A stretch of DNA of 32,000 nt from contig NZ_CP026606.1 in NCBI RefSeq assembly GCF_002945325.1, positions 420,001 to 452,000 on the forward strand, read 5' to 3'. The position numbers and the translations under genes were made by a program. Below the pieces are notes generated by a model. The model worked only from the letters and a program-made list of their open reading frames with translations, ran no database searches and had not been told where the DNA came from. Source of the stretch: Methanococcus maripaludis. GTDB lineage: Archaea; AGJL01; Methanococci; Methanococcales; Methanococcaceae. Positions 16,978-31,604 of this stretch are shown here, piece after piece (the first letter of the stretch is position 1; each line of letters starts with the position of its first letter).

Positions 16978-16978
16978 T

Positions 16979-17710: not shown

Positions 17711-17829
17711 ATGAAAAAGATAACAATGATGGAAATAAAACGGATTTCGAAGAAAAAAACCACAACTTTAAAGAATTAAATTTCAAAACTGAAAATTTTG
17801 ATAAAAAAATAATTTCCAAAAATTCTGAA

Positions 17830-18564
17830 ATGGAAAAAAAATGTTTTGAAAATCATGGTGGATCTAAAAAAGTAAGGGTATCTGAAATAGGCTCCAAAAG
17901 GGGGTACCCAATATCTTATACAGCAGTATCAAAACCCGAACACTACGAAGATATAGATATAATTTCCACAATAAACAGCGCAATTCTAAATCAGAAACCA
18001 TACAAACTTTTACAAAGTGATTTCAAGGTAAAAATTCGAAAAAACAGGATTCCTAAACTTTCAGTAATCCTTCTTGATTCGAGCGGGAGTATGGGAATCT
18101 CCAAAAGAATCGGGATTGCCAAGGGAATCGTGGACCGTTACGCTGATGATTCCTACGTAAAAAGAGAATATATCTCAGTGATATCTTTTAGGGGGCGTGA
18201 AGCTATAGTATTGTCCCCATTTACAAGAAAATATAATTTAATTAAGGCTCAGTTGGACTCCATAAAAACAGGAGGTAAAACTCCACTTTCTTCAGCACTT
18301 AAAGCTGCATTAAACATTTCAAAACAGTTTAGGAATAAAAACAAAAAATCTTCAGTTGAATTTATACTGATAAGTGATGGAAAAGCGAATGTTCCCATTA
18401 AAAAAGACATAAAATACGAAATCGAAGAACTTTCAAAAACCATTCAAAAAAGGAAAATTTCATTTAAAATATATGATATCCGGAATAAAGGGGTAATCGA
18501 TCCATCTATATCCTATTTGGACAAGATATCAGAAATTACGAATGCTGAAATGGAAAATATATAA
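17830..18564 (+). CDS. von Willebrand factor A (vWA) domain protein, ChlD/BchD C-terminal type; probably the 3' part of the same disrupted gene
   Basis: MIDAS motif LLDSSGSM (DxSxS), then GGKTPL and LISDGKANVP. Its reading frame is open upstream to 17662, inside the A9 run. Confidence 0.75.
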   Translation: MEKKCFENHGGSKKVRVSEIGSKRGYPISYTAVSKPEHYEDIDIISTINSAILNQKPYKLLQSDFKVKIRKNRIPKLSVILLDSSGSMGISKRIGIAKGIVDRYADDSYVKREYISVISFRGREAIVLSPFTRKYNLIKAQLDSIKTGGKTPLSSALKAALNISKQFRNKNKKSSVEFILISDGKANVPIKKDIKYEIEELSKTIQKRKISFKIYDIRNKGVIDPSISYLDKISEITNAEMENI

Positions 18565-18661
18565 TTAATACGGAATTTTTACTACTTTTTTAGAAAAATT
18601 ATAGTTTTTTTAGTATGATTGCAATTACCATATTTAAAAAATATTAAAATTAATTTTGGAA

Positions 18662-19618
18662 TCAGCCAAGCAATAAAAACGCCCCGATTATTAATATATC
18701 GATGGCAAATGTAATACTTGCATTTATCATGACGATTTTAGTTCCCAATTTCGGCCCGAATAATGAAACATGCAATGGAAGAGAGTGTTTTGCATATCTT
18801 GTTGAAAGTGATATAACATTTGCAAAGATTAATCCAATTATCACGTCTTTTGAACTCAAAACCCCTTTTTCCAAAAGCCCACTTCCCATTACCATTGCTG
18901 CCTGAACATTGATTAAATCTGTGAGAATTAAAATTCCAACACTCGGATCAAGATTCAAATATCCTGTAACGGGATTTATAATCAGTTTTATGACTTCAAA
19001 AACTCCTAAATTTGAGAAATAGATGACAATAAACATTGTGACAAACATTATGGGAAGGATTCGTTTTGAAACCCTTAAAGTACTCTCAAACGATTTTTTC
19101 ATGCTTTTTTTAATATTCTTTTGTTCTTCATTTTTTGGTTCATATTCTACCGTATTTTTCGAGACTAGCGCTAAATAACATAAACCAATAATTGTTTTTA
19201 CCATTGCAACCCCCGACCGGATTAAAATATATATAACGCCAGTCATTCCGAGTAGGGGTATTGCAATTGGTATAAAAAATGTAAATGTGTGTGAAAATAT
19301 TGAGGGAAATGAATTTGCAAGGGAGCTTCCAATGAGTTCTTTTTCGTTGACTTTTTTATCATTATATCCTTCAGCAAGTATTGAATAGCCCACAGTAGGG
19401 CTAAAAAAACATGAAAGTATTGAATATAATGAAAGCTGATTCATTTTTAGATGTTTTGTAAAAGGATATAAAAAATTACTTACTTTTTTCATTATTCCAG
19501 TATTTATCAGGCAGTTCATGATAAACATTGTAAGAAGAACCACTGATGATAGTTTTATTGTATACAGCGCCGCACTTAATAGAGAATTGCCCAATATTGA
19601 AAAATCAAAAATGTTCAC
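18662..19618 (-). CDS. Polytopic membrane protein, nucleoside-recognition (Gate) domain-like
   Basis: 318 aa with about 8 TM and resemblance to FeoB-C/SpmA-type Gate-domain proteins (by eye, moderate). GTG start with GGTGG 4 nt upstream. Confidence 0.65.
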   Translation of the reverse strand: MNIFDFSILGNSLLSAALYTIKLSSVVLLTMFIMNCLINTGIMKKVSNFLYPFTKHLKMNQLSLYSILSCFFSPTVGYSILAEGYNDKKVNEKELIGSSLANSFPSIFSHTFTFFIPIAIPLLGMTGVIYILIRSGVAMVKTIIGLCYLALVSKNTVEYEPKNEEQKNIKKSMKKSFESTLRVSKRILPIMFVTMFIVIYFSNLGVFEVIKLIINPVTGYLNLDPSVGILILTDLINVQAAMVMGSGLLEKGVLSSKDVIIGLIFANVISLSTRYAKHSLPLHVSLFGPKLGTKIVMINASITFAIDILIIGAFLLLG

Positions 19619-19713
19619 TGAACCACCATAGTTAATATAAAGTAATAAAAAATATAATATCTTATTATTTAAAGTCTTTTAAAAATAAAAATAATATTTT
19701 AAATCGTAAAAAT

Positions 19714-20889
19714 TTGATTCGAATACCTAAAACAATAACTCGTTGTGATATATTGCTAAAAACAGAAAACTTAACTGTTGGATATAACGATTATGTGGTT
19801 GTTGAAAATGCAAATCTCGAAATAAAAGAGGGCGAAATATTATGCATAATCGGTCCAAACGGGGTTGGCAAATCAACACTTCTAAAAACTATTGCAACAT
19901 ATTTAAAGCCAAAAACAGGCGTAGTTTATTTAAACGCTGAAAAAATTCATGAATTAAAGCCAAAAGAACTTGCAAAAGAAATGGCAGTTGTATTAACTGA
20001 TCGGGTTAATCCTGGAAATATGACTGGTTTTGATATAATTGCAATTGGAAGGCATCCATATACTGATCTTTTTGGCAGATTATCTGATGAAGATAAATTA
20101 ATTGTTACAAATGCTGCAATATCAGTAAATGCTGAACATCTTCTTTCAAAAAATTTCTTTGAGATGAGTGATGGTGAAAAACAAAAAATTATGATTGCAA
20201 GAGCAATTGCACAAGAGCCAAATGTACTGATACTGGATGAACCGACCAGTTTTTTGGATGCAAAACATAAAATTGAGTTAACTCTTCTTTTAAGAAAACT
20301 GGCCACTGAAAAAAATCTTGCGATAATTGTAACTTTGCACGATATAGAATTGGGTTTAAGAATAGCGGATAAAATGGCACTCATTAAAGACCATAATATA
20401 ATCGCTTATGGGTACCCTGAAGAGATAATGGATAAAAAAACAGTCAATTCGCTTTATGATTTGAAAAACGCCAATTATAGTAATTTAATTGGATATTTTG
20501 AGTTAAAAAATGAATTTAACGATAAAAAAAATGGAAATAAAAAAGTATTTGTAAACTGCGGGGGAGGAAGTGGTTCTGGAGTATTAAGATATTTGGTAAA
20601 AAATGGGTATGACATTACTGTTGGAATCTTGCAAAAAAACGACATTGACTATGCAGTAGCAGAATCTATGGAATTAGATATTATTTGCGAAGAAGCATTC
20701 TGTAAAATTTCAAATGAAAAATTGGATGAAGCATTTAAGGAACTAGAATCCGCAGATGTATTTATAAACACGAACTACCCTGTTGGCGACATGAATATTT
20801 TAAATTTAAATCTCGTGGAACAAGCTCAAAAATTGGGTAAAACAGTCATCAACTATGATGGAAATATTCAATGTTTAAAAGACATTTAG
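19714..20889 (+). CDS. ABC transporter ATP-binding protein (FecE/FepC/BtuD-like) with an extra ~130-aa C-terminal domain
   Basis: L.TENLTVGY, Walker A GPNGVGKST, signature MSDGEKQKIMIARA and Walker B LILDEPTSFLD. The C-terminal domain has CGGGSGSG (Rossmann-like loop). The true start may be the TTG at 19753 (MLKTENL). Confidence 0.85.
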   Translation: MIRIPKTITRCDILLKTENLTVGYNDYVVVENANLEIKEGEILCIIGPNGVGKSTLLKTIATYLKPKTGVVYLNAEKIHELKPKELAKEMAVVLTDRVNPGNMTGFDIIAIGRHPYTDLFGRLSDEDKLIVTNAAISVNAEHLLSKNFFEMSDGEKQKIMIARAIAQEPNVLILDEPTSFLDAKHKIELTLLLRKLATEKNLAIIVTLHDIELGLRIADKMALIKDHNIIAYGYPEEIMDKKTVNSLYDLKNANYSNLIGYFELKNEFNDKKNGNKKVFVNCGGGSGSGVLRYLVKNGYDITVGILQKNDIDYAVAESMELDIICEEAFCKISNEKLDEAFKELESADVFINTNYPVGDMNILNLNLVEQAQKLGKTVINYDGNIQCLKDI

Positions 20890-20952
20890 AACCATATTAA
20901 CAAAGAATTATTTTTTTCATTTATTAATTTTTATACCATTTTTTAATCGTAC

Positions 20953-20970
20953 TTATCTTTATAAAGATAA
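20953..20970. promoter_or_regulatory. Perfect 18-bp palindrome TTATCTTTATAAAGATAA containing a TATA-like core; candidate operator/promoter of the binding-protein gene
   Basis: The sequence is self-complementary across 20953-20970 and lies about 80 nt upstream of the 21052 start. Confidence 0.3.
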
Positions 20971-21051
20971 CTTGACAACTTTTAAATAGTACTTGATTAC
21001 TCATACTATTTGATACTATATTTTTAATATTATTATTACGAAGGTGGTAAT

Positions 21052-22323
21052 TTGAAAAAAATAATGGCGCTATTAATGCTTGCTATGATTGCATTTATGC
21101 CGTCAATCTCCGCCCAAGCTATTGGAGACGTTAACGGAGACGACAGCATCAGTATTGCAGACGTAGTTTATCTTTTTAAACACAGAAATGTCGGATTAGA
21201 TGTCGGGGATTTAAACTGTGACAATTCCGTAAACGTTGTTGATGTAGTTTATTTGTTTAAAAATTACGATACTTTTAGGGATCCAGTCGTATTTGCAGAA
21301 ACTTTTGAAATGGACCCTAACTGGGATAATGGTTACTGTTATGTCAAAGATTCAGTAGGTAATGAATTTGTTTTATTAAAAGAAGGAGCAACCGATCCTC
21401 AAATTGAAGGAGCAACTGTGATAACTGCCCCCATAAACAGTCTTGCATGTACCCAATATTCACCAGTGCTTTCAACTGCAGATGTTTTGAATAATGCTGA
21501 CGTATATGACACGATTGATGGAATTGGAAACTGGGATACAACGAATTCGGAAGAAATCTATTCACGCTATTTAAATAATGAAACAATTACTGTGGGCGGC
21601 ATAACGGATATAGATTACGATAAAATCGCTATTTTAAATCCTGATGTGGTATTTTTAGGTAGCTGGGATGATCATGATGTTGCAGAAAATAAATTGGAAA
21701 CTGAACTTGGAATAGATGTAGCCCGATTTTATACTTACGATGAAAAAACATACCTTGGAAGAATCGAATGGGCTAAATTCGTTGCTGCATTCTGGGGCGA
21801 TTCAAATTCAGATGCAATTGAACAGTATTTCCAAGATGCGTGGCATAAAAGAAATGAATTAATTAGGACTGCATCTACGGCAGATGACTATCCAACAGTG
21901 GTATATGTTATGCCTGTAGATTACGGAGGATTAACTTACTACCTTTACGGTTCTCAAAACTATAACAATAAAATGATTACCGAATTTGGTGGAGAAAATA
22001 TATTTAACGACATTCCTGGATCTAGCAGTCTTATTATTGATGCAGAAACATTCTACGAAAGAGCTGCAAGTGCAGACGTTGTTATTTATATGGGAATGGA
22101 ATATTACGGAATAGAATCTAGAGATGATTTATTGCAGTACGATCCAAATCTTGCAAGTTTTGAATCACTTTCTAACGGAAAATTATACATTCCTGTTACA
22201 TCTTATTATCTAGATGAAGCAAAAGATCCGGCAAATTACATGGAAGACTTTGCAAGAATGATCCATCCTGAATTATATTCCGGAGGAGATTCTAGCTTAA
22301 CTTATTTCAATAAAATCGAATAA
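21052..22323 (+). CDS. Secreted dockerin-repeat protein fused to a class III (FecB/BtuF-like) ABC substrate-binding domain
   Basis: Signal peptide, then two dockerin type I Ca-binding repeats (GDVNGDDSISIADVVYLFK and GDLNCDNSVNVVDVVYLFK), then a Peripla_BP_2-like body (DYDKIAILNPDVVFL). AGGTGG lies 4 nt before the TTG start. Confidence 0.75.
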   Translation: MKKIMALLMLAMIAFMPSISAQAIGDVNGDDSISIADVVYLFKHRNVGLDVGDLNCDNSVNVVDVVYLFKNYDTFRDPVVFAETFEMDPNWDNGYCYVKDSVGNEFVLLKEGATDPQIEGATVITAPINSLACTQYSPVLSTADVLNNADVYDTIDGIGNWDTTNSEEIYSRYLNNETITVGGITDIDYDKIAILNPDVVFLGSWDDHDVAENKLETELGIDVARFYTYDEKTYLGRIEWAKFVAAFWGDSNSDAIEQYFQDAWHKRNELIRTASTADDYPTVVYVMPVDYGGLTYYLYGSQNYNNKMITEFGGENIFNDIPGSSSLIIDAETFYERAASADVVIYMGMEYYGIESRDDLLQYDPNLASFESLSNGKLYIPVTSYYLDEAKDPANYMEDFARMIHPELYSGGDSSLTYFNKIE

Positions 22324-22327
22324 TTAA

Positions 22328-22348
22328 TTTTTTAATATACTCTTTTTT
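22328..22348 (+). terminator. Two T6 runs after the binding-protein gene (oligo-T terminator candidate)
   Basis: T6 at 22328-22333 and T6 at 22343-22348, within 25 nt of the stop. Confidence 0.3.
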
Positions 22349-22589
22349 ATGTTGAATAAAATTTTATATTTCTAAAAATTAAACTCTCAAAAATTTTCAA
22401 CATCAAGCTGCCTTTTGTATTTAACTTTTTTAAAAAAGACTAAAATTTTTTAATATTTTTAATCAGTTTAATTATTTTATATTCTGTTTTTTAAAATTTA
22501 AAAAAAGAGAAAAAGAATTTCAAAAATTAATATTTAAGTCGGATTAATTTGGAAGTTTGATTCAAGTTTGAACTGGCGAAAAAGAAAAA

Positions 22590-23138
22590 TTAATCATTTG
22601 TTTTTCTCTGCATTACTGTAGACTGAATCTTTTCCATCCAATCAGGAATTTTAACTCCCTCCGCAGGATAAAACTCCCCAACATGCGGTTTGATATCGAG
22701 GACTGGGCTGCCGTCGATGGCATCGAGACCTGTGACATGTAATGTTGTGCCTTCCTTTCCAACTAGGCGGACAACAGTTGTGAGAATCGGATTCGGACGA
22801 GCAGGACTGCAGGTGGAGAAGAGTCCCACTAGCGGGTATTCGGGATTTCCCATCGGGTGGACTTTTTTGATATCACGGGCTTTTCGAGGGACATCATGGG
22901 CCCAGTAGATGATCTTGATATGGGAATATTCCTCTATTCCTTCGAGATGTTCTGCGAGGTCCCTGTTAAGGACGACATCAGAAATCGTCTTTTCGGTTTT
23001 TCGAACCTCATCAATAGTCGGAGCGATGTCGTCTCGCATCTTGATGCCTGTTTCATCGGCAATAAGAAAAGGCTGCTTAGTAATACTGCGGACCACACCA
23101 ATCGGGTGCAAGGTGATATCATTAAATTGTGTATCCAT
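22590..23138 (-). CDS. TsaA/YaeB (TrmO-like, UPF0066) family protein
   Basis: PIGVVRS, FSTCSPARPNPI..TVVRL and L.V.GLDAIDGSPVLDIKP are hallmark TsaA-like blocks. A strong AAGGAGG lies 7 nt upstream of the ATG. G+C is much higher than in neighbouring sequence. Confidence 0.85.
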   Translation of the reverse strand: MDTQFNDITLHPIGVVRSITKQPFLIADETGIKMRDDIAPTIDEVRKTEKTISDVVLNRDLAEHLEGIEEYSHIKIIYWAHDVPRKARDIKKVHPMGNPEYPLVGLFSTCSPARPNPILTTVVRLVGKEGTTLHVTGLDAIDGSPVLDIKPHVGEFYPAEGVKIPDWMEKIQSTVMQRKTND

Positions 23139-23371
23139 AATTAGCCTCCTTTTCCCATAAATTTGATAATAAATACTTTATTTTTGTTTTTAGCAGGTAT
23201 TTATTGCTTATTTAACATAATTATCGGCGGAGAATTATATATGTTTTTTGATTTGTTTCAACATTTTCAACCAAGAATATCGATTTTAATCATTTTCAGT
23301 ATGTTTTTTAGTTGGAAGAAACGTCCTGTTAGGCCATATTTCGGAGTGGTAATTAAATTAGCAATTTCCAT

Positions 23372-23416
23372 ATTTTGTCAGATTAACTGCGTTAGATTAA
23401 TTATTTGGAAAAGAAG
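23372..23416 (+). repeat. Direct repeat copy A (45 nt; 25-nt exact core TTAGATTAATTATTTGGAAAAGAAG)
   Basis: Position-by-position comparison with 27604-27648 gives 40/45 identity. The last 25 nt are identical. Confidence 0.85.
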
Positions 23417-23429
23417 AAGTTAAGAACAG

Positions 23430-23453
23430 TTGATTGATTGAATATTCAAAAAT
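23430..23453 (+). repeat. Palindrome-centred motif copy 1: TTGATTGATTGAATATTCAAAAAT (contains the 12-nt perfect palindrome TTGAATATTCAA)
   Basis: 22/24 identical to 26373-26396. Confidence 0.75.
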
Positions 23454-23487
23454 GGGGGTAAGTATATATTTATTTTTCACGAAAAAA

Positions 23488-24759
23488 CTATATATCTAAA
23501 TCAATAAACTTCCAGAAAGGAACGGCTTTAACCAGTATACCATCTTCGGTTATTTCTTTCTCTAAATCAAATGTTATCAGATATAATTCATTGCATTTTA
23601 TTTTCTTCCCGATTTTAACGAGTTTTTTAATTTCCCTATCGTAATTTTCAAAATTCAAACTGTAACAGACGTTTATTAATTTTGAAACATGTTCATTTTG
23701 TTTAACTAAAAAGTCAACTTCACCGATGTCGTCTTCATAGTAAAAGAGTTCTTGATTTTCAACTAATCCTCTTCTTCTTAATTCAATAAAAACTGCATTT
23801 TCAAGGTATTTTCCAATATCGCTTGAATTTTTAAAGTCGTACATTTTTATAAAGCCATTATCGATCACGTATGACTTCATCAAACTTAAACTGCTTTCTT
23901 TTAAACTGTAAGCGTATTTTTTTAACGGAAATATCACGTAAGAATCATTTAAATGGCTCAAATATTCGTATAGGGTGTTTTTACTTACACTAACGCCCAT
24001 AGATTTAAAGTGATTTGCAAGTTTATTGATAGAAACTTTTTTCGTGTTTGAATTGATTAAAAATTTTAAAAATAACCTCAATGAATCGGTATTTTTCACA
24101 TTGTACCTTTCAATAATGTCTTTATAAACTACCATATCAAGATAGTTTTTCAAAATATCTTCACGATTTTCTTCTTCGAGTACAATTTCTGGAAATCCGC
24201 CATAATTTAAGTAATTTTCCAGGTTATTTAATAAATTAGCATGTTCTTGTTCAGTTAAAATATCTGTTAACGTTATATTCTTAAAATCAAGGTATTCTTT
24301 GAAAGATAAGGGAAATACTTCAACACTTAAACTTCTTCCTCGAAGTTGTGTTGCAATCTCTTTTGAAAGTAATTTTGAAGATGATCCGGTCAAATAAACT
24401 TTATAATCTTCTTTTTCAACCAATCTCTTTATAACAAGTTCAAAGTTTTCAATTTCCTGAATTTCGTCAAAAAAGAACGTTATTTTTTTATCAGGGTAAA
24501 TTTCTTTTGAAACTTTTACAATTTCCCGCAATGTGTCGAGAGTTACTGGAAATACCCTATCATCATCAAGTGGAAAGAATATTGCATTTTCAGTTTCTTT
24601 GAATAATTTCATCAATATGGATGTTTTTCCAGATCTCCTTATTCCTACAACTGCAAGAGCTTTGTTTGTTTCAGGTAGGATTACACTTCTTTCATTTAAT
24701 GATATTTCTCTTTGTTCATATTCTTTAATTATTGATTTTATGATATCTCGAAGTTCCAT
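23488..24759 (-). CDS. AAA+ ATPase (AAA_14 plus DUF4143-type architecture)
   Basis: Walker A GIRRSGKTS, Walker B FFFDEIQ, and a C-terminal region typical of the widespread archaeal/bacterial DUF4143 ATPases (GGFPE..., EVDFL). Confidence 0.85.
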   Translation of the reverse strand: MELRDIIKSIIKEYEQREISLNERSVILPETNKALAVVGIRRSGKTSILMKLFKETENAIFFPLDDDRVFPVTLDTLREIVKVSKEIYPDKKITFFFDEIQEIENFELVIKRLVEKEDYKVYLTGSSSKLLSKEIATQLRGRSLSVEVFPLSFKEYLDFKNITLTDILTEQEHANLLNNLENYLNYGGFPEIVLEEENREDILKNYLDMVVYKDIIERYNVKNTDSLRLFLKFLINSNTKKVSINKLANHFKSMGVSVSKNTLYEYLSHLNDSYVIFPLKKYAYSLKESSLSLMKSYVIDNGFIKMYDFKNSSDIGKYLENAVFIELRRRGLVENQELFYYEDDIGEVDFLVKQNEHVSKLINVCYSLNFENYDREIKKLVKIGKKIKCNELYLITFDLEKEITEDGILVKAVPFWKFIDLDI

Positions 24760-24967
24760 ATTTTCTCACCCAAATATTTACCTAATCATGAGTAAATAAA
24801 ATACAATTATTTACTTATCTATAGGTAAAGGTATTTAAATGTTTTAGAAATTGGCGATATTTGAACTATCAATACACTAAAAACAAAGTTTTTTGTGTTA
24901 ATAAATCTTTGATTTATATAATCTATCAAAATGTAATGAATTGATAGAAAATGATAGTTGATAATTT

Positions 24968-26257
24968 ATGAAACTTCCAGAAATTCCAAAATATTCAAAA
25001 GAAAACATTGATATTGCAATTAAATACGTACCAAATCGGGAAATAATTGATATTGTCCAAAAATACAATGAAAAGTATCTTCATTTTAATGAATTAAAAC
25101 ATAAAACACTTCCGATAGATCCAGTTATTATCTGGACAATAATGAAAATGTTTAGAATGAATAATTTAAAATCAATACATTTTGGAAAATGGACATTTAA
25201 TTATTCTTTAATCGATGAATTCATTGAAAAGCTGCATACCCTCGATAAATCGGCATCTGGAAACCTTTCAACTGCACTCGAATCTATTCCAAGTGAAAAA
25301 GAACGATATATTATAGACTCATTGATGGAAGAAGCAATTGCTTCAAGCCAGATTGAAGGGGCAGTAACTACGAGAAAAGTAGCGAAGGAAATGCTAAAAA
25401 AAGGCCAAAAACCAAAAAATAAAGATCAAAAAATGATCCTTAATAATTACAATACGATGAAATACATCCTTGAAATAAAAAATAAAGAATTTTCTATTTC
25501 TGAAATATTAAAAATTCATAAAATTATCACTGATGGAACGCTTGAAGATCCCGAATTTGTTGGAAAATTTAGAAAAAACAATGAAATTGCAGTTTATTCT
25601 ACTGATGGAACACTGCTTCACGAACCTCCAAAATACGAGCTGGTTGAATCATTAATGAATAATTTATGTGAATTTTCAAATTCAAAAGACAAATTCATCC
25701 ATCCAATAATAAAGGGAATCATAATCCACTTTTTAATTGGCTATATTCACCCATTCAACGATGGAAACGGCATAACTGCAAGATCCCTATTTTACTGGTA
25801 CCTTTTAAAGAACGATTACTGGTTATTTGAATATATGGCAATTTCAAGAGTAATTAATGGATCAAAAGGACAGTATCGGGACGCTTATTTAAAAACGGAA
25901 TCAGATACTTTTTATAAAGACGATAAAGGAGATTTAACATATTTTATAAAATACAACCTGGAATGCATCTGCAGATCCCTTGATGAAATATTGGATTATT
26001 TAAGTAAAAAACAGGTTGAACAAAAAGAAGTTCTAAATCTTATAAATAAATCAGAAGATCTTAATTTGCGTCAGGCCGAGATTTTAAAAGAGATTTTAAA
26101 GACTCCTGAAAACATAATTACAATTAAAGAAATCGTTACAACATATAACGTAGCTTACGCAACCGGAAGGGCAGATTTAAACCATCTTGTGGAATTAGGA
26201 TATCTGGAAAAGAAAAAAGCTGGAAAAGAATTTGTGTATGTTTTGAATAAAAAGTGA
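24968..26257 (+). CDS. Fic-domain protein (class II, intrinsic inhibitory helix) with a C-terminal winged-helix
   Basis: The Fic motif is HPFNDGNGITAR, against the canonical HxFx(D/E)GNGRxxR. An upstream SSQIEG matches the (S/T)xxxE(G/N) inhibitory motif. The C-terminus is wHTH-like (YNVAYATGRADLNHLVELGYLEKKK). Confidence 0.9.
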   Translation: MKLPEIPKYSKENIDIAIKYVPNREIIDIVQKYNEKYLHFNELKHKTLPIDPVIIWTIMKMFRMNNLKSIHFGKWTFNYSLIDEFIEKLHTLDKSASGNLSTALESIPSEKERYIIDSLMEEAIASSQIEGAVTTRKVAKEMLKKGQKPKNKDQKMILNNYNTMKYILEIKNKEFSISEILKIHKIITDGTLEDPEFVGKFRKNNEIAVYSTDGTLLHEPPKYELVESLMNNLCEFSNSKDKFIHPIIKGIIIHFLIGYIHPFNDGNGITARSLFYWYLLKNDYWLFEYMAISRVINGSKGQYRDAYLKTESDTFYKDDKGDLTYFIKYNLECICRSLDEILDYLSKKQVEQKEVLNLINKSEDLNLRQAEILKEILKTPENIITIKEIVTTYNVAYATGRADLNHLVELGYLEKKKAGKEFVYVLNKK

Positions 26258-26372
26258 ATTTTACTAGTTGATATTAAATTTTGAAAAGGTTTGGGATTAG
26301 ATATTTACCTGCCAGCAGGCAAATTAAATGGTTCTATCAGGGAATATTTTAAAAATTAGAAATTAAAGACTT

Positions 26373-26396
26373 TTGATTAATCGAATATTCAAAAAT
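26373..26396 (+). repeat. Palindrome-centred motif copy 2: TTGATTAATCGAATATTCAAAAAT
   Basis: 22/24 identical to 23430-23453. It shares an exact 14-mer TCGAATATTCAAAA with 31673-31686. Confidence 0.75.
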
Positions 26397-26619
26397 TGAT
26401 TAAAAATAGTTTGATTTTCCCCCAAATTTGATTGGATACCGTGTGTTTTGAAAACAGTTTTTAATAGTTTAAAAATAAACCAGACGTTAACTTTATAAAT
26501 TAAGTATTTTCAAGATATGCTGGTAAGAAGATGTCAAATTTTGTTTGATACATATAGACACGCCTTGTGTTAAACTTTCTTGCAAATGAATTCAATTTTA
26601 AAAAACACAGGGTGAGCAT

Positions 26620-27096
26620 ATGATCCACAATAAAACCGAAAATTTAATTCATACCTTTTTTTACGTTTGTTTTATGGCATTTGTAATGACCACATATAAT
26701 TTGGTATTACACCAAGGCTTTTCTGCAGAAGTTCTCAAAGTGAGCTGGTTAAGTTTCCCACTTACGTTCATAGTTGCATTTACGCTTGAATATTATGTTG
26801 TTGGAAGACATGGTATGAAATTAGTGTTTAAATTACACAAAGATCATCACACAGCGTTTCAAAAAAGAGCGATAGCTGCGTTAGTTATTGTTTCAGGAAT
26901 GGCTTCTTTGATGTCATTGTATGGATCCATTTTAACAGTTGGATTTTCAAACGAGTTACCGCTAACATGGGGCCATAACTTGGTTATTAACTTTTTATTT
27001 GCTTATCCTTTAATCGTATTCGTTGCAGGGCCGCTTGTGGGCTTTGTTTTTAGAAAAATTTTTCCAGAAGGATGTATTATCGATGTTGCAAAATAA
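26620..27096 (+). CDS. Four-TM membrane protein, DUF2798-like
   Basis: 158 aa with two similar halves, each of 2 TM. The N-terminal pattern (F..CFMAFVMT.YN..L..GFS) resembles DUF2798 as I recall it. Confidence 0.55.
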   Translation: MIHNKTENLIHTFFYVCFMAFVMTTYNLVLHQGFSAEVLKVSWLSFPLTFIVAFTLEYYVVGRHGMKLVFKLHKDHHTAFQKRAIAALVIVSGMASLMSLYGSILTVGFSNELPLTWGHNLVINFLFAYPLIVFVAGPLVGFVFRKIFPEGCIIDVAK

Positions 27097-27410
27097 ATAT
27101 ACTTTTTTAAAAGAAATTAATCATTTAATTTCTTTTCAAACCAGTTTTCTGCTAAAAATGAGAATAAAAACTTTTCCTAATGTCATTATATGAGCGTTAT
27201 TAGATTTTTCAAAAAATACTCCGATTACTTGATTTTTAGATCATTCCGTATCAGAAAATTTAATTAGAAAAATAAAATATTTTTGTTTCGGGGAGTCCAA
27301 TAAATCTTTTTGATATGTTGCAGACTAATAAAATTGTGATCGTTTTGTATACATAGATCTAATTCAATCAATCTGAATGTTTAAGTAATGCTATTTTCAA
27401 AAATTATATT

Positions 27411-27530
27411 TGCCTGAAGGGGTGAAAATAATGGGATTGGGGAGTTAATCCTACACGGTATCAGGCATTAAGAACAGTTCAATTTCTGAGGGGGTTGTTG
27501 AATTGTTCCAGATCTCTTTTTAATCTTTTT
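27411..27530 (+). ncRNA. Candidate small structured RNA (two hairpins followed by T-runs) in a 590-nt gene-free gap
   Basis: Outer stem TGCCTGA/TCAGGCA (27411-27417/27461-27467) encloses GGGATT/AATCCT (27433-27438/27447-27452). A second 11-bp stem lies at 27472-27482/27498-27508 (one G-U pair). CTTTTT occurs twice at 27516-27530. The patch is locally G+C-rich. Confidence 0.2.
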
Positions 27531-27603
27531 AAATAAATTTTATAAACGACACAACAGGGCTATTTTTAAAATTTTAAACAAACACATCACCAACATTTTC
27601 GTA

Positions 27604-27648
27604 ATTTTGTTAGATCAACGGTTTTAGATTAATTATTTGGAAAAGAAG
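27604..27648 (+). repeat. Direct repeat copy B (45 nt), same orientation as copy A
   Basis: 40/45 identity with 23372-23416, with the exact core at 27624-27648. It ends 43 nt upstream of the 27692 start codon. Confidence 0.85.
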
Positions 27649-27691
27649 TAAGAAAGATGAATCTTGTGAATTCATAATATCATTAGGACTC

Positions 27692-28192
27692 ATGACTAGA
27701 AAAGGGAATTTCTTGGCATTGAAAATCAAAAAAGTAAAATCCGTTCCAGAATTCTGGATAATTTCTGCACATGAATCTGAACTTCAATTTGAGATCCCTG
27801 AAAACGAATGGGACGATGAATATTCTGAATTCTATATTGATATTGAACCATGGTTAGAAAATGACTTTGATCCAGATAAACTAACGATTGGAAAACATAG
27901 GGCCGTCCAATTTTTAAAAATGGAAAATGAAAATGACGGATTTCGTAAATTGGAAAATTACTTGGATGAATATGGAGATATGATCCTAAATTTAGATATT
28001 CCTGCATTTAACGGAATTTTAGCTTTGAAAATAACAAAAAACGATTCTGAAGACCTCTACAAAATAACAATTCCTGATCGGGATGAATTCATTGAAAATA
28101 TGAATATTGAATGGGACGATGGAAAAGTTTATGGGTTAAATCAAAATCTAAAAAGATTATTTAAAAACGTATTCTCTTCATCCAAAGAATAG
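27692..28192 (+). CDS. Acidic hypothetical protein (166 aa)
   Basis: Clean ORF and the first gene of a tightly packed same-strand series. About 35 Asp+Glu by my count. No known motif. Confidence 0.65.
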   Translation: MTRKGNFLALKIKKVKSVPEFWIISAHESELQFEIPENEWDDEYSEFYIDIEPWLENDFDPDKLTIGKHRAVQFLKMENENDGFRKLENYLDEYGDMILNLDIPAFNGILALKITKNDSEDLYKITIPDRDEFIENMNIEWDDGKVYGLNQNLKRLFKNVFSSSKE

Positions 28193-28218
28193 TTTTCGAA
28201 ATCCCCTTAGGTGGGATC

Positions 28219-28464
28219 ATGACACAACAACAATTCTATTTAGTAAAAGATGTTGATTCAAGAGCTTTAAGGTATTACCTTCACAAACTCGAAAATTTAA
28301 CATCTATAAATCCTGAAAGATTAAAAAATCTTGTTGAATCAAAAAAGAATTACAAAAGAACCATTAAACTATCAAAACAAGAGCAAAATATCACTGATAA
28401 ATTTGGAAAAGCCACAAACATTCTTGTAAATTATTTAATTATCGAGGCAGAGCAGAATGAATGA
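28219..28464 (+). CDS. Small hypothetical protein (81 aa), possibly ribbon-helix-helix-like at the C-terminus
   Basis: Strong SD AGGTGGGATC lies directly upstream. The C-terminal KRTIKLSKQEQNITDKFGKATNILVNYLIIEAE has a strand-helix-helix look (weak inference). The stop codon is the first TGA of the repeat tract. Confidence 0.6.
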   Translation: MTQQQFYLVKDVDSRALRYYLHKLENLTSINPERLKNLVESKKNYKRTIKLSKQEQNITDKFGKATNILVNYLIIEAEQNE

Positions 28465-28652
28465 ATGAATGAATGAATGAATGAATGAATGAATGAATGA
28501 ATGAATGAATGAATGAATGAATGAATGAATGAATGAATGAATGAATGAATGAATGAATGAATGAATGAATGAATGAATGAATGAATGAATGAATGAATGA
28601 ATGAATGAATGAATGAATGAATGAATGAATGAATGAATGAATGAATGAATGA
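28455..28652. repeat. Perfect tetranucleotide microsatellite (GAAT)n = (ATGA)49, 198 nt
   Basis: Read directly: uninterrupted 4-nt periodicity from 28455 to 28652 with no variant unit. Confidence 0.99.
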
Positions 28653-29469
28653 TTTTAAAAATAAACTGCTCCTAAAACCTAAAAAAGAAACTCAAAAAGA
28701 ACCTCCTGAAGTTAAAAAGTGGCTTAACAAATTCAGGGAAGAACGGGAGTTTGATGGAATTAAATCTTCAACGATTGGAAATGACATTACTAGATTGAAA
28801 GTATTTTACCAACTCATGAGGCTTGACAATTTTAAAGATTTTAAGGATGAAAGCCAAGAGCGTAAAAGATTTTCAGGTTTTGAAATAAAGCACTATGACG
28901 CAATATCTTCAGACCTTTTAAACGACATTATGAACGTAATTATTGAAAGTAAAAGCAGAACAAAAATTAGGGATGCAACAATTATCCGGTTTTTGTGGGA
29001 TTCAGAATGCAGAATTTCTGAGGCATTGAACTTAACTTATGGGGACTCAGACCTTGAAGAAGGAACCTTTGTTTTAAGAAATACAAAAGGTAAAGCAGAA
29101 AGAACCGTTGTATGCTCAACAGACACGTTAGAAGTTCTAAACTATTATGTCCAATACAATATCAAAAAAGGATCTAAAGATAGAGTCTTTCAAAATTCTA
29201 ATGGCGAACCTATCGGAAGGGGATGGATAGGGGAAATATTTAGAAAAGCTGTCGATAAATTAAAAAAAGATGGCAAAATTCCTGCAAATAGAAAAATCGT
29301 TGTGCATTCTTTAAGACATGGACGAGCTGTTGATTTACTTGAAAAAGGTCAGCCAATAGATATTGTAAAAGAATATTTAGGGCATAAATCACTTGATACA
29401 ACCCTATTCTATTCTCATTCAAAGGAAAGGAAGGAAAAAATGATTAAAAACATTCAAAAAATACTATGA
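28645..29469 (+). CDS. Tyrosine recombinase / integrase (phage integrase family)
   Basis: N-terminal SAM-like core-binding region. The catalytic residues are present: R in ECRISEAL, H-x-x-R in LRHGRAV, LGH, and Y in TTLFYSH. The ATG lies inside the microsatellite and there is no SD upstream. Confidence 0.9.
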   Translation: MNDFKNKLLLKPKKETQKEPPEVKKWLNKFREEREFDGIKSSTIGNDITRLKVFYQLMRLDNFKDFKDESQERKRFSGFEIKHYDAISSDLLNDIMNVIIESKSRTKIRDATIIRFLWDSECRISEALNLTYGDSDLEEGTFVLRNTKGKAERTVVCSTDTLEVLNYYVQYNIKKGSKDRVFQNSNGEPIGRGWIGEIFRKAVDKLKKDGKIPANRKIVVHSLRHGRAVDLLEKGQPIDIVKEYLGHKSLDTTLFYSHSKERKEKMIKNIQKIL

Positions 29470-29478
29470 GGGGAAAAT

Positions 29479-30147
29479 ATGAAAGAAATGAAGTTTATAG
29501 ACTCAAATACCCATCCTTTTTTACAGGAAGGTACAAAATACTACGAAGTGAATTATGAATACATTATATTTTCGGGTATCAAACTTTCAGACATGGACAT
29601 TCTTTTAGATGGTAAAAAATTAGAAGAACAAGGTTTTATCCTTAAAGATATGAACAAATACGATTTACCAGTTATGTATGTCGATAATATCGAGGAAATT
29701 ATGGCCAAATTTGACGAAAAATACCACTATGCATTTTACGGAAAAGAGTTATCCCATATACTTACATTGGAAAATTTAAAAGATATGGCCGTTGAAATTA
29801 GTATGGATCCGCCATTTTGTGATAAAATGGTTCCAATAAAAGTTTCAGAACTGATAGAAAAAAACCAAAAACTTGAAGATATCTTGGAAATTGGAATAAG
29901 TGGAAAAGATTTAAACACTTTAAATCTTACAGTATGGGATCTTGATCATGCACTTGTAGACGGCATTGGATTTAAAGATCTGGATCATTTTGGAGTAAAA
30001 ATGGCCGATGTATGGTTGAGATTAAATGTTAACCTATTTAACGATATAAATAGGAAAGTCGAGGGTTTAAAAAGCGTTTATGTCCCAGATGAAGATTTAA
30101 ATATGGACCTTTTAGAAAGGATTAATACTTCTCAAGATTCAAATTAA
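29479..30147 (+). CDS. Hypothetical protein (222 aa)
   Basis: Clean ORF with GAGGGG as SD, starting 9 nt after the integrase stop. No motif recognised. Confidence 0.65.
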   Translation: MKEMKFIDSNTHPFLQEGTKYYEVNYEYIIFSGIKLSDMDILLDGKKLEEQGFILKDMNKYDLPVMYVDNIEEIMAKFDEKYHYAFYGKELSHILTLENLKDMAVEISMDPPFCDKMVPIKVSELIEKNQKLEDILEIGISGKDLNTLNLTVWDLDHALVDGIGFKDLDHFGVKMADVWLRLNVNLFNDINRKVEGLKSVYVPDEDLNMDLLERINTSQDSN

Positions 30148-30158
30148 TATCATAATTA

Positions 30159-31604
30159 TTAATTTAATCTATTTTCCAATATTTTCAACATATATTTACA
30201 GGCTTCAGCTTCATTTTCTTCAAATCTATGAATATGTAATGGATTAACTAAAGAAAACATTCTTGGATTGAAAGTTAGTTCTGATCGTATAACTTTTTCA
30301 ATATATTGTTCTTCGACACGGTTAATCATTTCAATTTCTTCGTTGTTGAAATAATATCGTGCTAAACGCCTACATAATGCTGAAGAAATACGTTTAAATC
30401 CCCCGAAGGTAACTTCTTCATGATCTTTCATTGCATGAAGTAATTCTTCAAATTCTTCATAGTGTCGGATATCCCTTGGTTCAAAACAGTTTTTAATATT
30501 TAACCGATTAATGTCCTCAGTTAAAGGTATTACTTCGTCAACGTATTCGTTTAAAGATTTTAGAGATAATTTATCAATATTTCTTAATTCGCCTAGTTTT
30601 TCCGTTAATTTTTTTATATTACTTTGGTATGAATATGGGAGATCTTTATGATCCAAAATTTTTAAAACGTTCTTCAATAAGTGTTTATCCAAAAATTCAT
30701 CTAAATCCTTAATATTTTTTCTAAATAATTGGGTATAGCGTATATCTTCAATTTTTGAAAGATCTGAAATTATATTGGCTTCGCAATAACCTCTTATGAG
30801 TTCACTGAAATTTGGAACATTTAATCTTGGATAAAATTCTAATTTTGATAAAATCATAAGATTATCGATACATCGTTTTAAATAAGGGTGATTATCAACA
30901 ATTAGTTCAATATTTGACTTTTCGTAAGATATTCCCGGATCAGCATACTGTTTTAGATAATAAATTGTAGAATAAACAGTTATGGCCACATTATATTCAA
31001 ATAAGTGGGCGATTCGTTGCATTTGTTCAGTTGAAACTTTTTTTGATAACAATTCAATATTTTTCATTATGTTTACAGATATATTGGATATTTCAGAAAT
31101 TACCCTATTTTTTTGAATTTCTGAAAACTTTGATATTGCATCATAACTCGAATTTAAAATTTGATAATTCGAAACTATCAGTAAATCCAAATTTAAATAA
31201 AGATAAGAAAGTTCCGCTATTTGTTTTAGCGTTGAAATATATAATTTTTCAAGGTCAGTTTTCATTCCAGGATGATTAATAAGATCTTCCCTTAAATATA
31301 TATAAAATATTCCGGATTTAATGTTAGACATAGTCAATATGACATTAATTACTATTTTTTCTGAAAACTTCGTATTTGTAAGCAGATATACTACATCTGT
31401 TAAAAAATCCCCAATATACTCAATAATATCAATTAATCCCCAACTACGATAATATTGAAGCAATAAAGAAGTGCATAATGTTCCAATAAATGAAAATATA
31501 CTTTTAAATGCCATAGAATATCCAGATAAGCTTAAAATAGATATTATTTTTAAAATTCCTGATTTATACTCGTTTGAAAACTTCAATTTACACTTATCAT
31601 CCAA
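30159..31604 (-). CDS. Large orphan protein (481 aa) with a hydrophobic N-terminal region
   Basis: Long uninterrupted ORF. The start is TTG 31604 or ATG 31514. The N-terminal ~110 aa contain TM-like segments and the rest is helical and I/L/K/E/N-rich. No known motif. Confidence 0.7.
   Translation of the reverse strand: MDDKCKLKFSNEYKSGILKIISILSLSGYSMAFKSIFSFIGTLCTSLLLQYYRSWGLIDIIEYIGDFLTDVVYLLTNTKFSEKIVINVILTMSNIKSGIFYIYLREDLINHPGMKTDLEKLYISTLKQIAELSYLYLNLDLLIVSNYQILNSSYDAISKFSEIQKNRVISEISNISVNIMKNIELLSKKVSTEQMQRIAHLFEYNVAITVYSTIYYLKQYADPGISYEKSNIELIVDNHPYLKRCIDNLMILSKLEFYPRLNVPNFSELIRGYCEANIISDLSKIEDIRYTQLFRKNIKDLDEFLDKHLLKNVLKILDHKDLPYSYQSNIKKLTEKLGELRNIDKLSLKSLNEYVDEVIPLTEDINRLNIKNCFEPRDIRHYEEFEELLHAMKDHEEVTFGGFKRISSALCRRLARYYFNNEEIEMINRVEEQYIEKVIRSELTFNPRMFSLVNPLHIHRFEENEAEACKYMLKILENRLN

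What the first reader, a model, noticed from the sequence alone, without database searches (positions are those of the whole stretch)
23372..27648. 45-nt direct repeats 4.2 kb apart bracket a three-gene cassette immediately left of the integrase module
23372-23416 and 27604-27648 are in the same orientation and match at 40/45 positions, with an exact 25-nt core (TTAGATTAATTATTTGGAAAAGAAG). Between them lie an AAA+ DUF4143-type ATPase, a Fic protein, a DUF2798-like membrane protein and about 0.6 kb of non-coding DNA. The integrase gene starts 1 kb to the right of copy B. This geometry is what att-site duplication by site-specific integration produces. It suggests two elements accreted in tandem at one site, or an integrase-less satellite beside an integrase-bearing element. 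A weaker, gapped resemblance (GATTAATT..TGGAA..TTGATT) at about 22541-22567 would also put the GC-rich TsaA-like gene in its own cassette, giving an integron-like accretion pattern. That third copy is uncertain.
Basis: partly seen in the sequence, partly recalled or inferred. Interest (0 to 1): 0.7.

Follow-up and report, generated by a model that had tools for sequence, protein, structure and literature searches.

The report
Junction repeats in an archaeal gene island
The two 45-base repeats are real, but they are two of four copies of a longer non-coding "junction" sequence that separates independently acquired gene blocks in a strain-specific 10-kb island of Methanococcus maripaludis, so they are not the two ends of one three-gene cassette.

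Summary
In detail: 23372-23416 and 27604-27648 match 40/45 with an exact 25-nt core, and chance expects none.

A profile search shows that the 45-mer is the central block of a module of about 150-200 nt. Its parts, in order, are N-tail, ATTTTGT, mid, TATTTrrAAAAnnAG and P'. The window holds four direct copies:
- J0, about 22452-22550, degenerate.
- A, 23318-23513, full.
- C, 26344-26456, right half only.
- B, 27559-27648, left half only.

Comparison with ten other M. maripaludis assemblies shows that window 22451 to 588 nt past the window end is a strain-specific island. It lies between a conserved binding-protein gene and a tRNA-Ser fragment. Strain KA1 has one module there. Six assemblies (X1, OS7 and four drafts) have a ParE toxin-antitoxin pair flanked by two modules, with a reciprocal crossover inside ATTTTGT. 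A sister strain diverges from the window at 26366, inside copy C, so the A-B interval is at least two units.

The neighbouring integrase belongs to a Xer-related family. Two relatives examined sit about 200 nt from tRNA-Ser fragments. The window's copy has a 48-aa internal deletion.

Best reading: the repeats are scars of serial insertion at a landing pad, with the recombinase acting in trans (inferred). This is not an integron.

The parts
22451..22451 (.). Left boundary of the strain-specific island. All other strains share the flank up to 22450, which is 127 nt past the stop of the Peripla_BP_2 gene (21052-22323).
   Evidence: blastn of the window against L015 and L018-L023. In KA1 and X1 the flank ends at the ATTTTGT of their module.
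22452..22560 (+). J0: a degenerate module copy at the island's left edge.
   Evidence: Local alignment to the L015 module scores 30 against a shuffle mean of 18.8 (z=3.8; 2 of 300 shuffles reach it). The gapped pattern is found. nhmmer did not detect this copy.
22590..23138 (-). Segment S1 cargo: a TrmO/TsaA-like gene with 46.4% GC, in a window of 30.8% GC.
   Evidence: Pfam TrmO_N 1.9e-24. NCBIfam TsaA 90.6 bits against a cutoff of 93.25. GC values.
23318..23513 (+). Module copy A, full length: N-tail, ATTTTGT, mid, TATTTGGAAAAGAAG, then a P' arm containing the TTGAATATTCAA palindrome.
   Evidence: nhmmer E=1.4e-34, profile positions 5-201; note that A was one of the sequences used to build the profile. 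Alignment.
23488..24759 (-). Segment S2 cargo 1: AAA_14 + DUF4143 ATPase, a candidate defence gene (PADLOC PDC-S01).
   Evidence: Pfam. PADLOC PDC-S01 E=2.4e-103. The gene alone recurs at 86-94% nt identity at other positions in X1 and L023.
24968..26257 (+). Segment S2 cargo 2: Fic protein with a C-terminal HTH; matches the SoFic defence model.
   Evidence: Pfam Fic 3.1e-19 and HTH_DeoR. PADLOC SoFic 1.3e-48.
26344..26456 (+). Module copy C, right half only (TATTTTAAAAATTAG + P' arm). Homology with strain GCA_013761225 ends at 26366, inside this copy.
   Evidence: nhmmer E=5.4e-11, profile positions 92-198. Break at 26366. The Fic-side flank is 95% identical to L015 (105/110), whereas the P' arm is only 71% identical (84/119).
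26620..27096 (+). Segment S3 cargo: DUF2798 membrane protein.
   Evidence: Pfam 6e-14. Absent from L015/L004, which carry an MFS_1 gene at this position.
27373..27603 (+). N element: a dispersed non-coding element of about 240-270 nt that forms the left arm of copy B. It has a TATA-like AAAAATTATATTTGCC, an 11-bp hairpin at 27472-27508 and T runs. It ends at ATTTTGT.
   Evidence: 69-73% identical copies in L036-L041, L038 (two copies) and L058. The hairpin is kept in all five aligned copies, with three wobble-compatible one-sided changes. Pattern counts. No Rfam match.
27559..27648 (+). Module copy B, left half only (N-tail, ATTTTGT, mid, TATTTGGAAAAGAAG). Homology to the family stops after GAAG.
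   Evidence: nhmmer E=3.7e-10, profile positions 20-107. Its left flank matches the right end of the ParE cassette of X1 at 75-79%.
27692..28464 (+). Start of segment S4: a 166-aa ORF of unknown function, then DUF2540 (28219-28464).
   Evidence: Pfam DUF2540 8e-27. A relative's element has the order 166aa-64aa-MCM-DUF2540-integrase (L058), but the two 166-aa proteins are not detectably similar.
28455..28652 (.). (GAAT)49.5 perfect microsatellite between the DUF2540 stop and the integrase start.
   Evidence: TRF. It is 92 nt shorter in GCA_014207315.
28645..29469 (+). Xer-related tyrosine integrase, 274 aa, with an in-frame 48-aa internal deletion in the N-terminal SAM-like domain.
   Evidence: Pfam Phage_integrase 2.9e-29. 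NCBIfam XerA_Arch 114 bits against a cutoff of 220. Homologs are about 322 aa and carry PF13495. Alignment A1.
29479..31604 (.). Rest of S4 inside the window: a 222-aa ORF (+) and a 481-aa ORF (-), both without family matches. The island continues to a tRNA-Ser(GCT) 3' fragment 588 nt beyond the window end.
   Evidence: No hits in Pfam, NCBIfam, PHROGs or PADLOC. tRNA fragment and homology restart.

Best explanation
The 45-nt repeats are the best-conserved central block of a non-coding junction module of about 150-200 nt. Its parts, in order, are: an N-tail ending ..AACATTTTCGTA; O1 = ATTTTGT; a mid block YRGATYAAC..TTAGATTAATT; O2 = TATTTrrAAAAnnAG; and a P' arm ..TTGATTnATnGAATATTCRAAAAT...

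The window holds four direct copies (J0, A, C, B). They divide a strain-specific 10.1-kb island into four segments:
- S1: a GC-rich TrmO-like gene.
- S2: two candidate defence genes, a PDC-S01-type ATPase and a SoFic-like Fic.
- S3: DUF2798 plus the N element.
- S4: the decayed remnant of an integrative element, with a crippled integrase.

The island sits where other strains have a single module (KA1) or a module-flanked ParE toxin-antitoxin pair (X1, OS7 and others). This spot lies between a conserved Peripla_BP_2 gene and the tRNA-Ser fragment that marks the end of a pT26-2-family plasmid.

The most likely mechanism is serial site-specific insertion. Small circular DNAs lacking an integrase each carry a module and recombine with the resident module, so a hybrid module is left at each junction. 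The resident module acts as a landing pad.

Shown: the family of copies; their position at polymorphism boundaries; one reciprocal crossover confined to the 7-bp ATTTTGT; and recurrent ends of homology at O1 and O2.

Inferred: that the events are enzymatic rather than homologous or microhomology-driven; that the recombinase acts in trans (a Xer-family paralog is the obvious candidate); and the order of acquisition.
For: 1. The repeat is real and non-random.
2. The nhmmer profile finds copies only at junctions: A, C and B in the window; one copy in KA1; two flanking the ParE pair in X1, OS7, L020, L022 and L023 (L060 has the same gene layout); two in L015; two around a flavodoxin gene in L038 (sequences).
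3. The reciprocal crossover is clear. X1 site 1 against KA1 is 100% identical on the left and in O1, then 72% and 67% on the right. X1 site 2 against KA1 is 60% on the left and 100% on the right.
4. O1 is also the point where every strain leaves the common flank. It is the right end of the N element in unrelated loci.
5. O2 is where B and L038a lose homology, where C gains it, and where the window and L015 part.
6. Strain comparison splits the A-B interval at 26366.
7. The motif is absent from species-representative genomes, metagenome contigs, viral contigs, plasmids and phages, apart from chance hits.
8. The cargo is typical of flexible islands: ParE TA, PDC-S01, SoFic, transporters.
9. S1, next to the flank, has foreign GC content. 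This fits insertion at the flank-proximal site.
Against: - Only one event (the ParE pair) gives a cleanly mapped reciprocal crossover.
- There are two recurrent break positions 38 nt apart (O1 and O2). A single tyrosine-recombinase core site would not give that.
- No conserved dyad of recombinase-binding arms flanks either position.
- No active recombinase is tied to the module. The local integrase is internally deleted, and its relatives are associated with tRNA-Ser sites.
- Blocks smaller than a segment also move. The ATPase gene alone recurs elsewhere, with ends that are not module ends. General mosaic recombination therefore operates in the same region.
- J0 is weak: it is not found by nhmmer.
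- Whole genomes of these strains could not be scanned, so copies at ordinary intergenic sites cannot be excluded.
Confidence: 0.5

Rival explanations
1. Portable homology. The module and the N element are a dispersed non-coding repeat family. They may be regulatory or terminator/sRNA-like sequences carried by Methanococcus mobile elements. Segments between copies are swapped, inserted or lost by homologous or microhomology-mediated recombination, for example after natural transformation. No dedicated site-specific recombinase is involved.
For: - The N element recurs at 69-73% identity in unrelated loci and has features of a transcription unit: a TATA-like box, a conserved hairpin and T runs.
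- There are two different break positions, O1 and O2.
- There is no conserved recombinase-binding dyad.
- Gene-sized blocks such as the ATPase move with other boundaries.
- The window/L015 break lies in a 13-16-nt AT-rich identity, ATTTTAAAAATTA.
Against: - The ParE-pair crossover fell in a 7-nt identity, although a 12-nt identity (GTTAAAACTTAA) lies 11 nt away in the same pair of sites.
- The two partner sites are only 60-72% identical, which is poor substrate for homologous recombination.
- The same 7-mer is the boundary in three separate contexts.
Confidence: 0.28
2. A and B are attL and attR of one 4.2-kb element (ATPase, Fic, DUF2798), integrated by or alongside the neighbouring integrase element.
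For: The repeats are direct, 40/45 identical, with an exact 25-nt core. An integrase gene lies 1 kb to the right.
Against: - A sister strain has A + ATPase + Fic without DUF2798 or B, and the break is at 26366.
- A half-module (C) lies inside the interval.
- No strain lacks exactly the A-B interval.
- Relatives of the integrase are associated with tRNA-Ser 3' ends (PMC6972569), and this copy has lost 48 aa of its N-domain.
Confidence: 0.06
3. Duplicated regulatory DNA. The 25-nt core (TTAGATTAATTATTTGG...) is a TATA-like promoter element copied upstream of different genes, and its position at junctions is incidental.
For: In B the AT-rich TTAATTATTT lies 52-61 nt upstream of the ATG of the 166-aa ORF, a plausible distance for an archaeal promoter. 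The mid block is TATA-like in all family members.
Against: - Downstream of A lies the 3' end of a convergent gene, not a start.
- Genes next to the copies have no consistent orientation.
- The conserved unit is 150-200 nt long and coincides with indel boundaries.
Confidence: 0.08

Closest known systems
Tandem accretion of integrative elements at one attachment site. Examples: archaeal integrated plasmids and viruses in tandem at tRNA genes, including pT26-2-family elements at tRNA-Ser in Methanococcus (PMC6972569, PMC8371274); Prochlorococcus tycheposon islands (bioRxiv 10.1101/2020.12.28.424599).
   Same: Direct repeats of a site separate independently acquired segments. The island lies beside a tRNA-Ser integration hot spot. 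Some units lack an integrase. The cargo is accessory or defence genes. A decayed integrase-bearing element is part of the array.
   Different: The repeated site is not a tRNA fragment. It is an AT-rich non-coding module of 150-200 nt. The only tRNA-Ser fragment is single-copy and lies at the far right end. The units are very small, one or two genes of 0.8-3 kb.
Integrons (IntI, attI, attC-bounded cassettes), including the archaeal integrons of PMC9668308.
   Same: Small cassettes, mostly single-gene and without an integrase, are separated by a repeated site. New DNA appears to enter at the end next to a fixed flank. TA genes are among the cargo.
   Different: There is no attC-like folded single strand (z between -1.8 and +1.6). 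Conservation is in sequence rather than structure. The integrase is Xer-like and scores 57 bits on the integron-integrase model against a cutoff of 265. It is not adjacent to the insertion point. Cassette genes lie in both orientations.
Xer-dependent modules: Acinetobacter pdif modules and IMEX elements at dif (named from general knowledge; not tested against their sequences).
   Same: Modules without an integrase are bounded by short recombination sites and would be moved by a host Xer-type recombinase in trans. Methanococcus genomes encode several Xer-related paralogs.
   Different: No 11-6-11 dif-like dyad is conserved in the module. The copies are direct, not alternating in orientation. 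Nothing shows that this locus is the chromosomal dif.
Replacement or additive flexible genomic islands maintained by homologous recombination between conserved flanks.
   Same: One locus carries different content in nearly every strain, between a conserved left flank and a conserved right anchor.
   Different: Internal junctions carry a specific repeated module, and one insertion shows a reciprocal crossover within 7 bp. Flank-driven replacement does not predict this.

Membership tests
Integron (cassette array with attC sites and IntI) | attC sites: imperfect palindromes that fold as single-stranded hairpins, with structure rather than sequence conserved | tested here: not met
   ssDNA folding of A, B, the KA1 site and X1 site 1, on both strands for A and B. 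MFE ranges from -3.8 to -12.9 kcal/mol and z from -1.77 to +1.62 against shuffles, with no common hairpin. The copies are alignable by sequence.
Integron (cassette array with attC sites and IntI) | An IntI integrase (with the IntI-specific additional domain) adjacent to attI and the first cassette | tested here: not met
   TIGR02249 integron integrase scores 56.9 bits against a cutoff of 265, and only the C-terminal 70 aa match. The best model is archaeal XerA. The gene lies 6 kb from the flank-proximal junction. The additional domain itself was not examined separately.
   GCA_013761225 and SRR12395637 share A to 26366 at 99% and then differ. No genome lacks exactly the A-B interval.
   40/45 identity with an exact 25-mer, in the same orientation.
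tRNA-targeting integrative element of Methanococcales (type II, Xer-related integrase; pT26-2-family style) | Element flanked by a tRNA gene and a 50-60-nt copy of its 3' end | tested here: inconclusive
   One tRNA-Ser(GCT) 3' fragment abuts the right end of the island, 588 nt beyond the window. No second copy exists in the window or in the 7.5 kb to the right. No full tRNA is found in the loci.
tRNA-targeting integrative element of Methanococcales (type II, Xer-related integrase; pT26-2-family style) | Intact Xer-related integrase near the att site | tested here: inconclusive
   The family assignment is met: 46-75% identity (BLASTP) to Methanococcales integrases. Relatives P0053 and P0095 lie about 200 nt from tRNA-Ser fragments. 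This copy, however, has a 48-aa in-frame deletion and lies 3.1 kb from the fragment.
Xer/dif-type site (dif, pdif, IMEX attachment) | Two arms of about 11 bp in inverted orientation around a spacer of about 6 bp, conserved between copies | tested here: not met
   A scan for 11-nt inverted arms with 4-10-nt spacers in eight copies found no dyad at a shared position.
Known RNA family / tRNA | Match to a curated covariance model or a tRNA fold | tested here: not met
   Rfam gave no match at gathering threshold for the whole window or at E<=1 for 22300-28700. ARAGORN found no tRNA.

The most novel reading that the evidence does not exclude
Methanococcus maripaludis has a previously undescribed cassette-capture system. 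Small circular DNAs without an integrase (toxin-antitoxin pairs, defence genes, transporters) each carry a module of about 200 nt. A Xer-family tyrosine recombinase supplied in trans inserts them, at a 7-bp ATTTTGT crossover, into a landing pad of the same sequence family. The result is arrays in chromosomes and in the cargo regions of integrated plasmids. This would be a functional analogue of integrons or pdif modules that relies on sequence-specific sites rather than folded ones.
Probability: 0.2. Interest if true: 0.75.

Novelty: new variant of a known kind. Interest (0 to 1): 0.5.

Why it matters
M. maripaludis is a genetic model methanogen. Its strain-to-strain variation has so far been attributed mainly to large plasmid and virus insertions at tRNA genes.

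A defined non-coding junction module marks where one- and two-gene blocks (defence genes, toxin-antitoxin pairs, transporters) are stitched into a hot spot. That would give a testable handle on how small accessory genes move in archaea that lack classical integrons. It could also provide a natural docking site for strain engineering.

If the events prove to be ordinary recombination between dispersed repeats, the finding reduces to a well-mapped flexible island.

Tried and rejected
- Chance or low-complexity repeat: rejected.
- tRNA or known RNA at the sites: none found.
- Protein-coding explanation: ORF 23163-23423 overlaps A, but the same frame has a stop in B (read).
- Second copy of the tRNA-Ser fragment that would make the island a classical tRNA-bounded element: none.
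- Genome-wide dispersal: a degenerate 24-26-nt pattern gave only chance hits in unrelated bacteria among species-representative genomes, metagenome contigs and viral contigs. There was no similarity in plasmid or phage collections.
- N-element patterns are absent from viral contigs.
- Close integrase relatives in viral contigs: none, only 26-27% identity.
- dif-like dyad: not found.
- attC-like folding: not found.
- Simple deletion of the MFS gene as the cause of copy C: rejected. The P' arm of C is only 71% identical to the sister strain's, whereas the Fic-side flank is 95% identical.
- Other contexts for the DUF2798 protein: none beyond the same layout.
- P0002 turned out to be a paralog at another locus and was not informative.
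- The look-up of P0044 (L060) only repeated the ParE-type layout.

Full report
**Observation.** Reading the sequence confirms the two 45-mers at 23372-23416 (A) and 27604-27648 (B). They are direct, 40/45 identical, and share the exact 25-mer TTAGATTAATTATTTGGAAAAGAAG. With up to three mismatches the 25-mer occurs only at these two places, whereas dinucleotide shuffles gave none. The repeat finder extends the pair to 64 nt at 80% identity. It also reports a weaker relative of A's right side at 26345-26396. A Phage_integrase gene starts 997 nt after B. There are no tRNAs and no Rfam families in the window.

**Organism and comparative frame.** The flanking Peripla_BP_2 protein identifies Methanococcus maripaludis. 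Exact-protein look-ups returned the same locus from ten other assemblies:
- GCA_014207315 has the window's layout at 99.3% identity.
- GCA_013761225 (L002/L015), with a Logan assembly, shares window 17073-26366 at 99.3% and then diverges.
- X1, OS7, KA1 and five draft strains share the left flank only up to window 22450, which is 127 nt past the Peripla_BP_2 stop. Homology resumes 583 nt beyond the window's right end.

The resumption point is a 56-nt 3' fragment of tRNA-Ser(GCT) on the minus strand. No complete tRNA is nearby. In KA1 the fragment maps within 2 nt of the published end of the pT26-2-family plasmid MmaKA1_IP1, coordinate 491,741 (PMC6972569). Window 22451 onward is therefore a strain-specific island of about 10.1 kb. 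It lies between a conserved gene and a known tRNA-Ser integration hot spot.

**What other strains have there.** KA1 has about 550 nt of non-coding DNA. It begins, exactly where the common flank ends, with ACATTTTGT|TGGATTAACCGTTAAAACTTAAATTTTTAATC.... This aligns with A and B. X1, OS7, L020, L022 and L023 carry a ParE toxin-antitoxin pair flanked by two such sites (L060 shows the same gene layout).

Segment-wise identities show a clean reciprocal exchange:

| Comparison | Left of ATTTTGT | ATTTTGT | Right of ATTTTGT |
|---|---|---|---|
| X1 site 1 vs KA1 | 100% | 100% | 72% and 67% |
| X1 site 2 vs KA1 | 60% | 100% | 100% |

The crossover is therefore confined to the 7-bp ATTTTGT. A longer identity (GTTAAAACTTAA) lies nearby in the same sites but was not used.

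**The module.** A profile was built from six full copies: the window's A, KA1, X1 sites 1 and 2, L023 site 2 and the L015 copy. Searching all fetched DNA with it finds three copies in the window:
- A as a full copy, 23318-23513 (E=1e-34; A was part of the profile).
- C as a right half, 26344-26456 (profile 92-198, E=5e-11).
- B as a left half, 27559-27648 (profile 20-107, E=4e-10).

It also finds two copies in L015. One is A. The other is a full copy just after the MFS gene that replaces DUF2798 there. Two more copies lie in L038, a MAG contig from a different tRNA-Ser(TGA) locus, where they flank a flavodoxin gene.

A degenerate fourth window copy, J0, lies at about 22452-22550 at the island's left edge. 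nhmmer misses it, but it aligns to the L015 copy with z=3.8.

The module anatomy is N-tail | O1 = ATTTTGT | mid | O2 = TATTTrrAAAAnnAG | P' arm.

**Recurrent boundaries.** O1 marks three things:
- the flank/variable boundary in all strains;
- the ParE-pair crossover;
- the right end of a dispersed non-coding 'N element' of about 240-270 nt, which forms B's left arm (window 27373-27603).

The N element recurs at 69-73% identity in L036-L041, L038 and L058. It has a TATA-like box and an 11-bp hairpin (27472-27508), followed by T runs. The hairpin is kept in all five aligned copies, with wobble-compatible changes.

O2 is where B and L038a lose family homology and where C gains it. It is also where the window and L015 part company. 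Left of 26366 the two are 95-99% identical. Right of it, the P' arm of C is only 71% identical to L015's, so copy C is not a simple deletion product.

The A-B interval is not one cassette. It comprises at least two segments. One runs from A to C and carries the ATPase plus Fic. PADLOC scores these as PDC-S01 (E=2e-103) and SoFic (E=1e-48). The other runs from C to B and carries DUF2798 plus the N element. L015 has the first segment without the second. The TrmO-like gene lies between J0 and A and has 46% GC in a 31% GC window. This is consistent with a separate and probably recent acquisition.

**The integrase.** It is Xer-related. All Methanococcales relatives tested, including MJ0367, score 136-161 bits on the archaeal XerA model, below its cutoff of 220. 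The window's protein scores 114 bits. Homologs are about 322 aa long and have a SAM-like N-domain. The window's protein has an in-frame 48-aa deletion between two LKVF motifs.

Two relatives show where the family's sites lie:
- P0053 lies 190 nt from a tRNA-Ser fragment, beyond which each strain differs.
- P0095 closes a DUF2080-166aa-64aa-MCM-DUF2540-integrase element, 200 nt from a tRNA-Ser(TGA) fragment.

This agrees with published type II, Xer-related integrases of Methanococcales plasmids that target tRNA-Ser/Leu (PMC6972569). Segment S4, from B to the tRNA fragment, therefore looks like a decayed, MCM-less remnant of such an element. Its integrase is an unlikely agent for the module junctions.

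**Is the module a generic motif?** A degenerate pattern covering all family types found the following:
- nine chance hits in unrelated bacteria among 185,579 species-representative genomes, and no Methanococcus;
- eleven chance hits in metagenome contigs, none extending to the profile;
- one chance hit in viral contigs.

Plasmid and phage collections show no similarity. Within the fetched loci the 16-mer occurs with 0 mismatches only at the junctions listed above. Whole genomes of the relevant strains could not be scanned. This remains the main gap.

**Mechanism.** The best-supported reading (confidence about 0.5) is serial site-specific insertion. Small module-bearing circles enter a resident module next to the fixed flank and leave hybrid modules at each junction. 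The recombinase acts in trans.

Against a simple version of this stand several points. There are two break positions 38 nt apart. No conserved binding dyad is present. Only one crossover is cleanly mapped. The ATPase gene alone has moved with other boundaries.

The main rival (about 0.28) is that the module and N element are dispersed repeats that provide portable homology for ordinary recombination.

Integron membership fails on attC folding and on the integrase model score. Archaeal integrons described so far have canonical IntI and attC and were not reported from Methanococcus (PMC9668308).

**Verdict.** The finding is a well-delimited flexible island with a specific junction module. It is a new variant of att-scar accretion beside a tRNA hot spot, of moderate interest. 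The cassette-capture reading remains possible (probability about 0.2) and is directly testable.

Noticed in passing
window 28455-28652: A perfect (GAAT)49.5 microsatellite fills the gap between the DUF2540 stop and the integrase ATG, with stop codons in all three forward frames. It is 92 nt (23 units) shorter in GCA_014207315, and short-read assemblies break at it. It could modulate integrase expression by length variation.
   Followed up: partly
window 28645-29469: The integrase carries an in-frame 48-aa deletion between two LKVF motifs. This removes most of the SAM-like core-binding domain. The catalytic R-K-HxxR-H-Y residues are retained.
   Followed up: yes
window 27373-27603 (hairpin 27472-27508); L036-L041 about 6360-6610; L038 15535-15810; L058 19006-19258 (reverse strand): A dispersed non-coding element of about 240-270 nt. 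It has a TATA-like box, two hairpins (one of 11 bp kept in all copies with wobble-compatible changes) and T runs. It always lies downstream of a plus-strand gene and ends at ATTTTGT. It has no Rfam match. It may be an sRNA or a terminator unit.
   Followed up: partly
window 23488-26257: The ATPase matches PADLOC candidate defence family PDC-S01 (E=2e-103) and the Fic protein matches the SoFic defence model (E=1e-48). Other strains carry a ParE toxin-antitoxin pair at the same chromosomal spot, so the locus behaves like a defence/TA hot spot.
   Followed up: partly
window 16273-17710 (break at 17073): All other strains align with the window only from 17073 rightwards. The break falls inside a Mg-chelatase-like ATPase gene, of which only the AAA_lid_2 part remains. 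An ABC_tran ORF precedes it where the other strains have CobN. This is a second strain-specific rearrangement.
   Followed up: partly
window 15613-16049: A perfect tandem duplication of 212 nt (period 225, 100% identity) lies inside ORF 15494-16078.
   Followed up: no
588 nt right of the window end (L009 13940-14000): A 56-nt tRNA-Ser(GCT) 3' fragment without a complete tRNA. It is the attachment-site copy that bounds the pT26-2-family integrated plasmid. In KA1 it maps within 2 nt of the published MmaKA1_IP1 end, coordinate 491,741.
   Followed up: yes
L036-L041 10001-11153; L058 10001-11237: Paralogous Xer-related integrases sit about 200 nt from tRNA-Ser(TGA) fragments. Beyond those fragments every strain carries different DNA (helicase, HepT/MNT, restriction-modification, radical SAM). 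This is a second tRNA-linked hypervariable hot spot in the species.
   Followed up: partly
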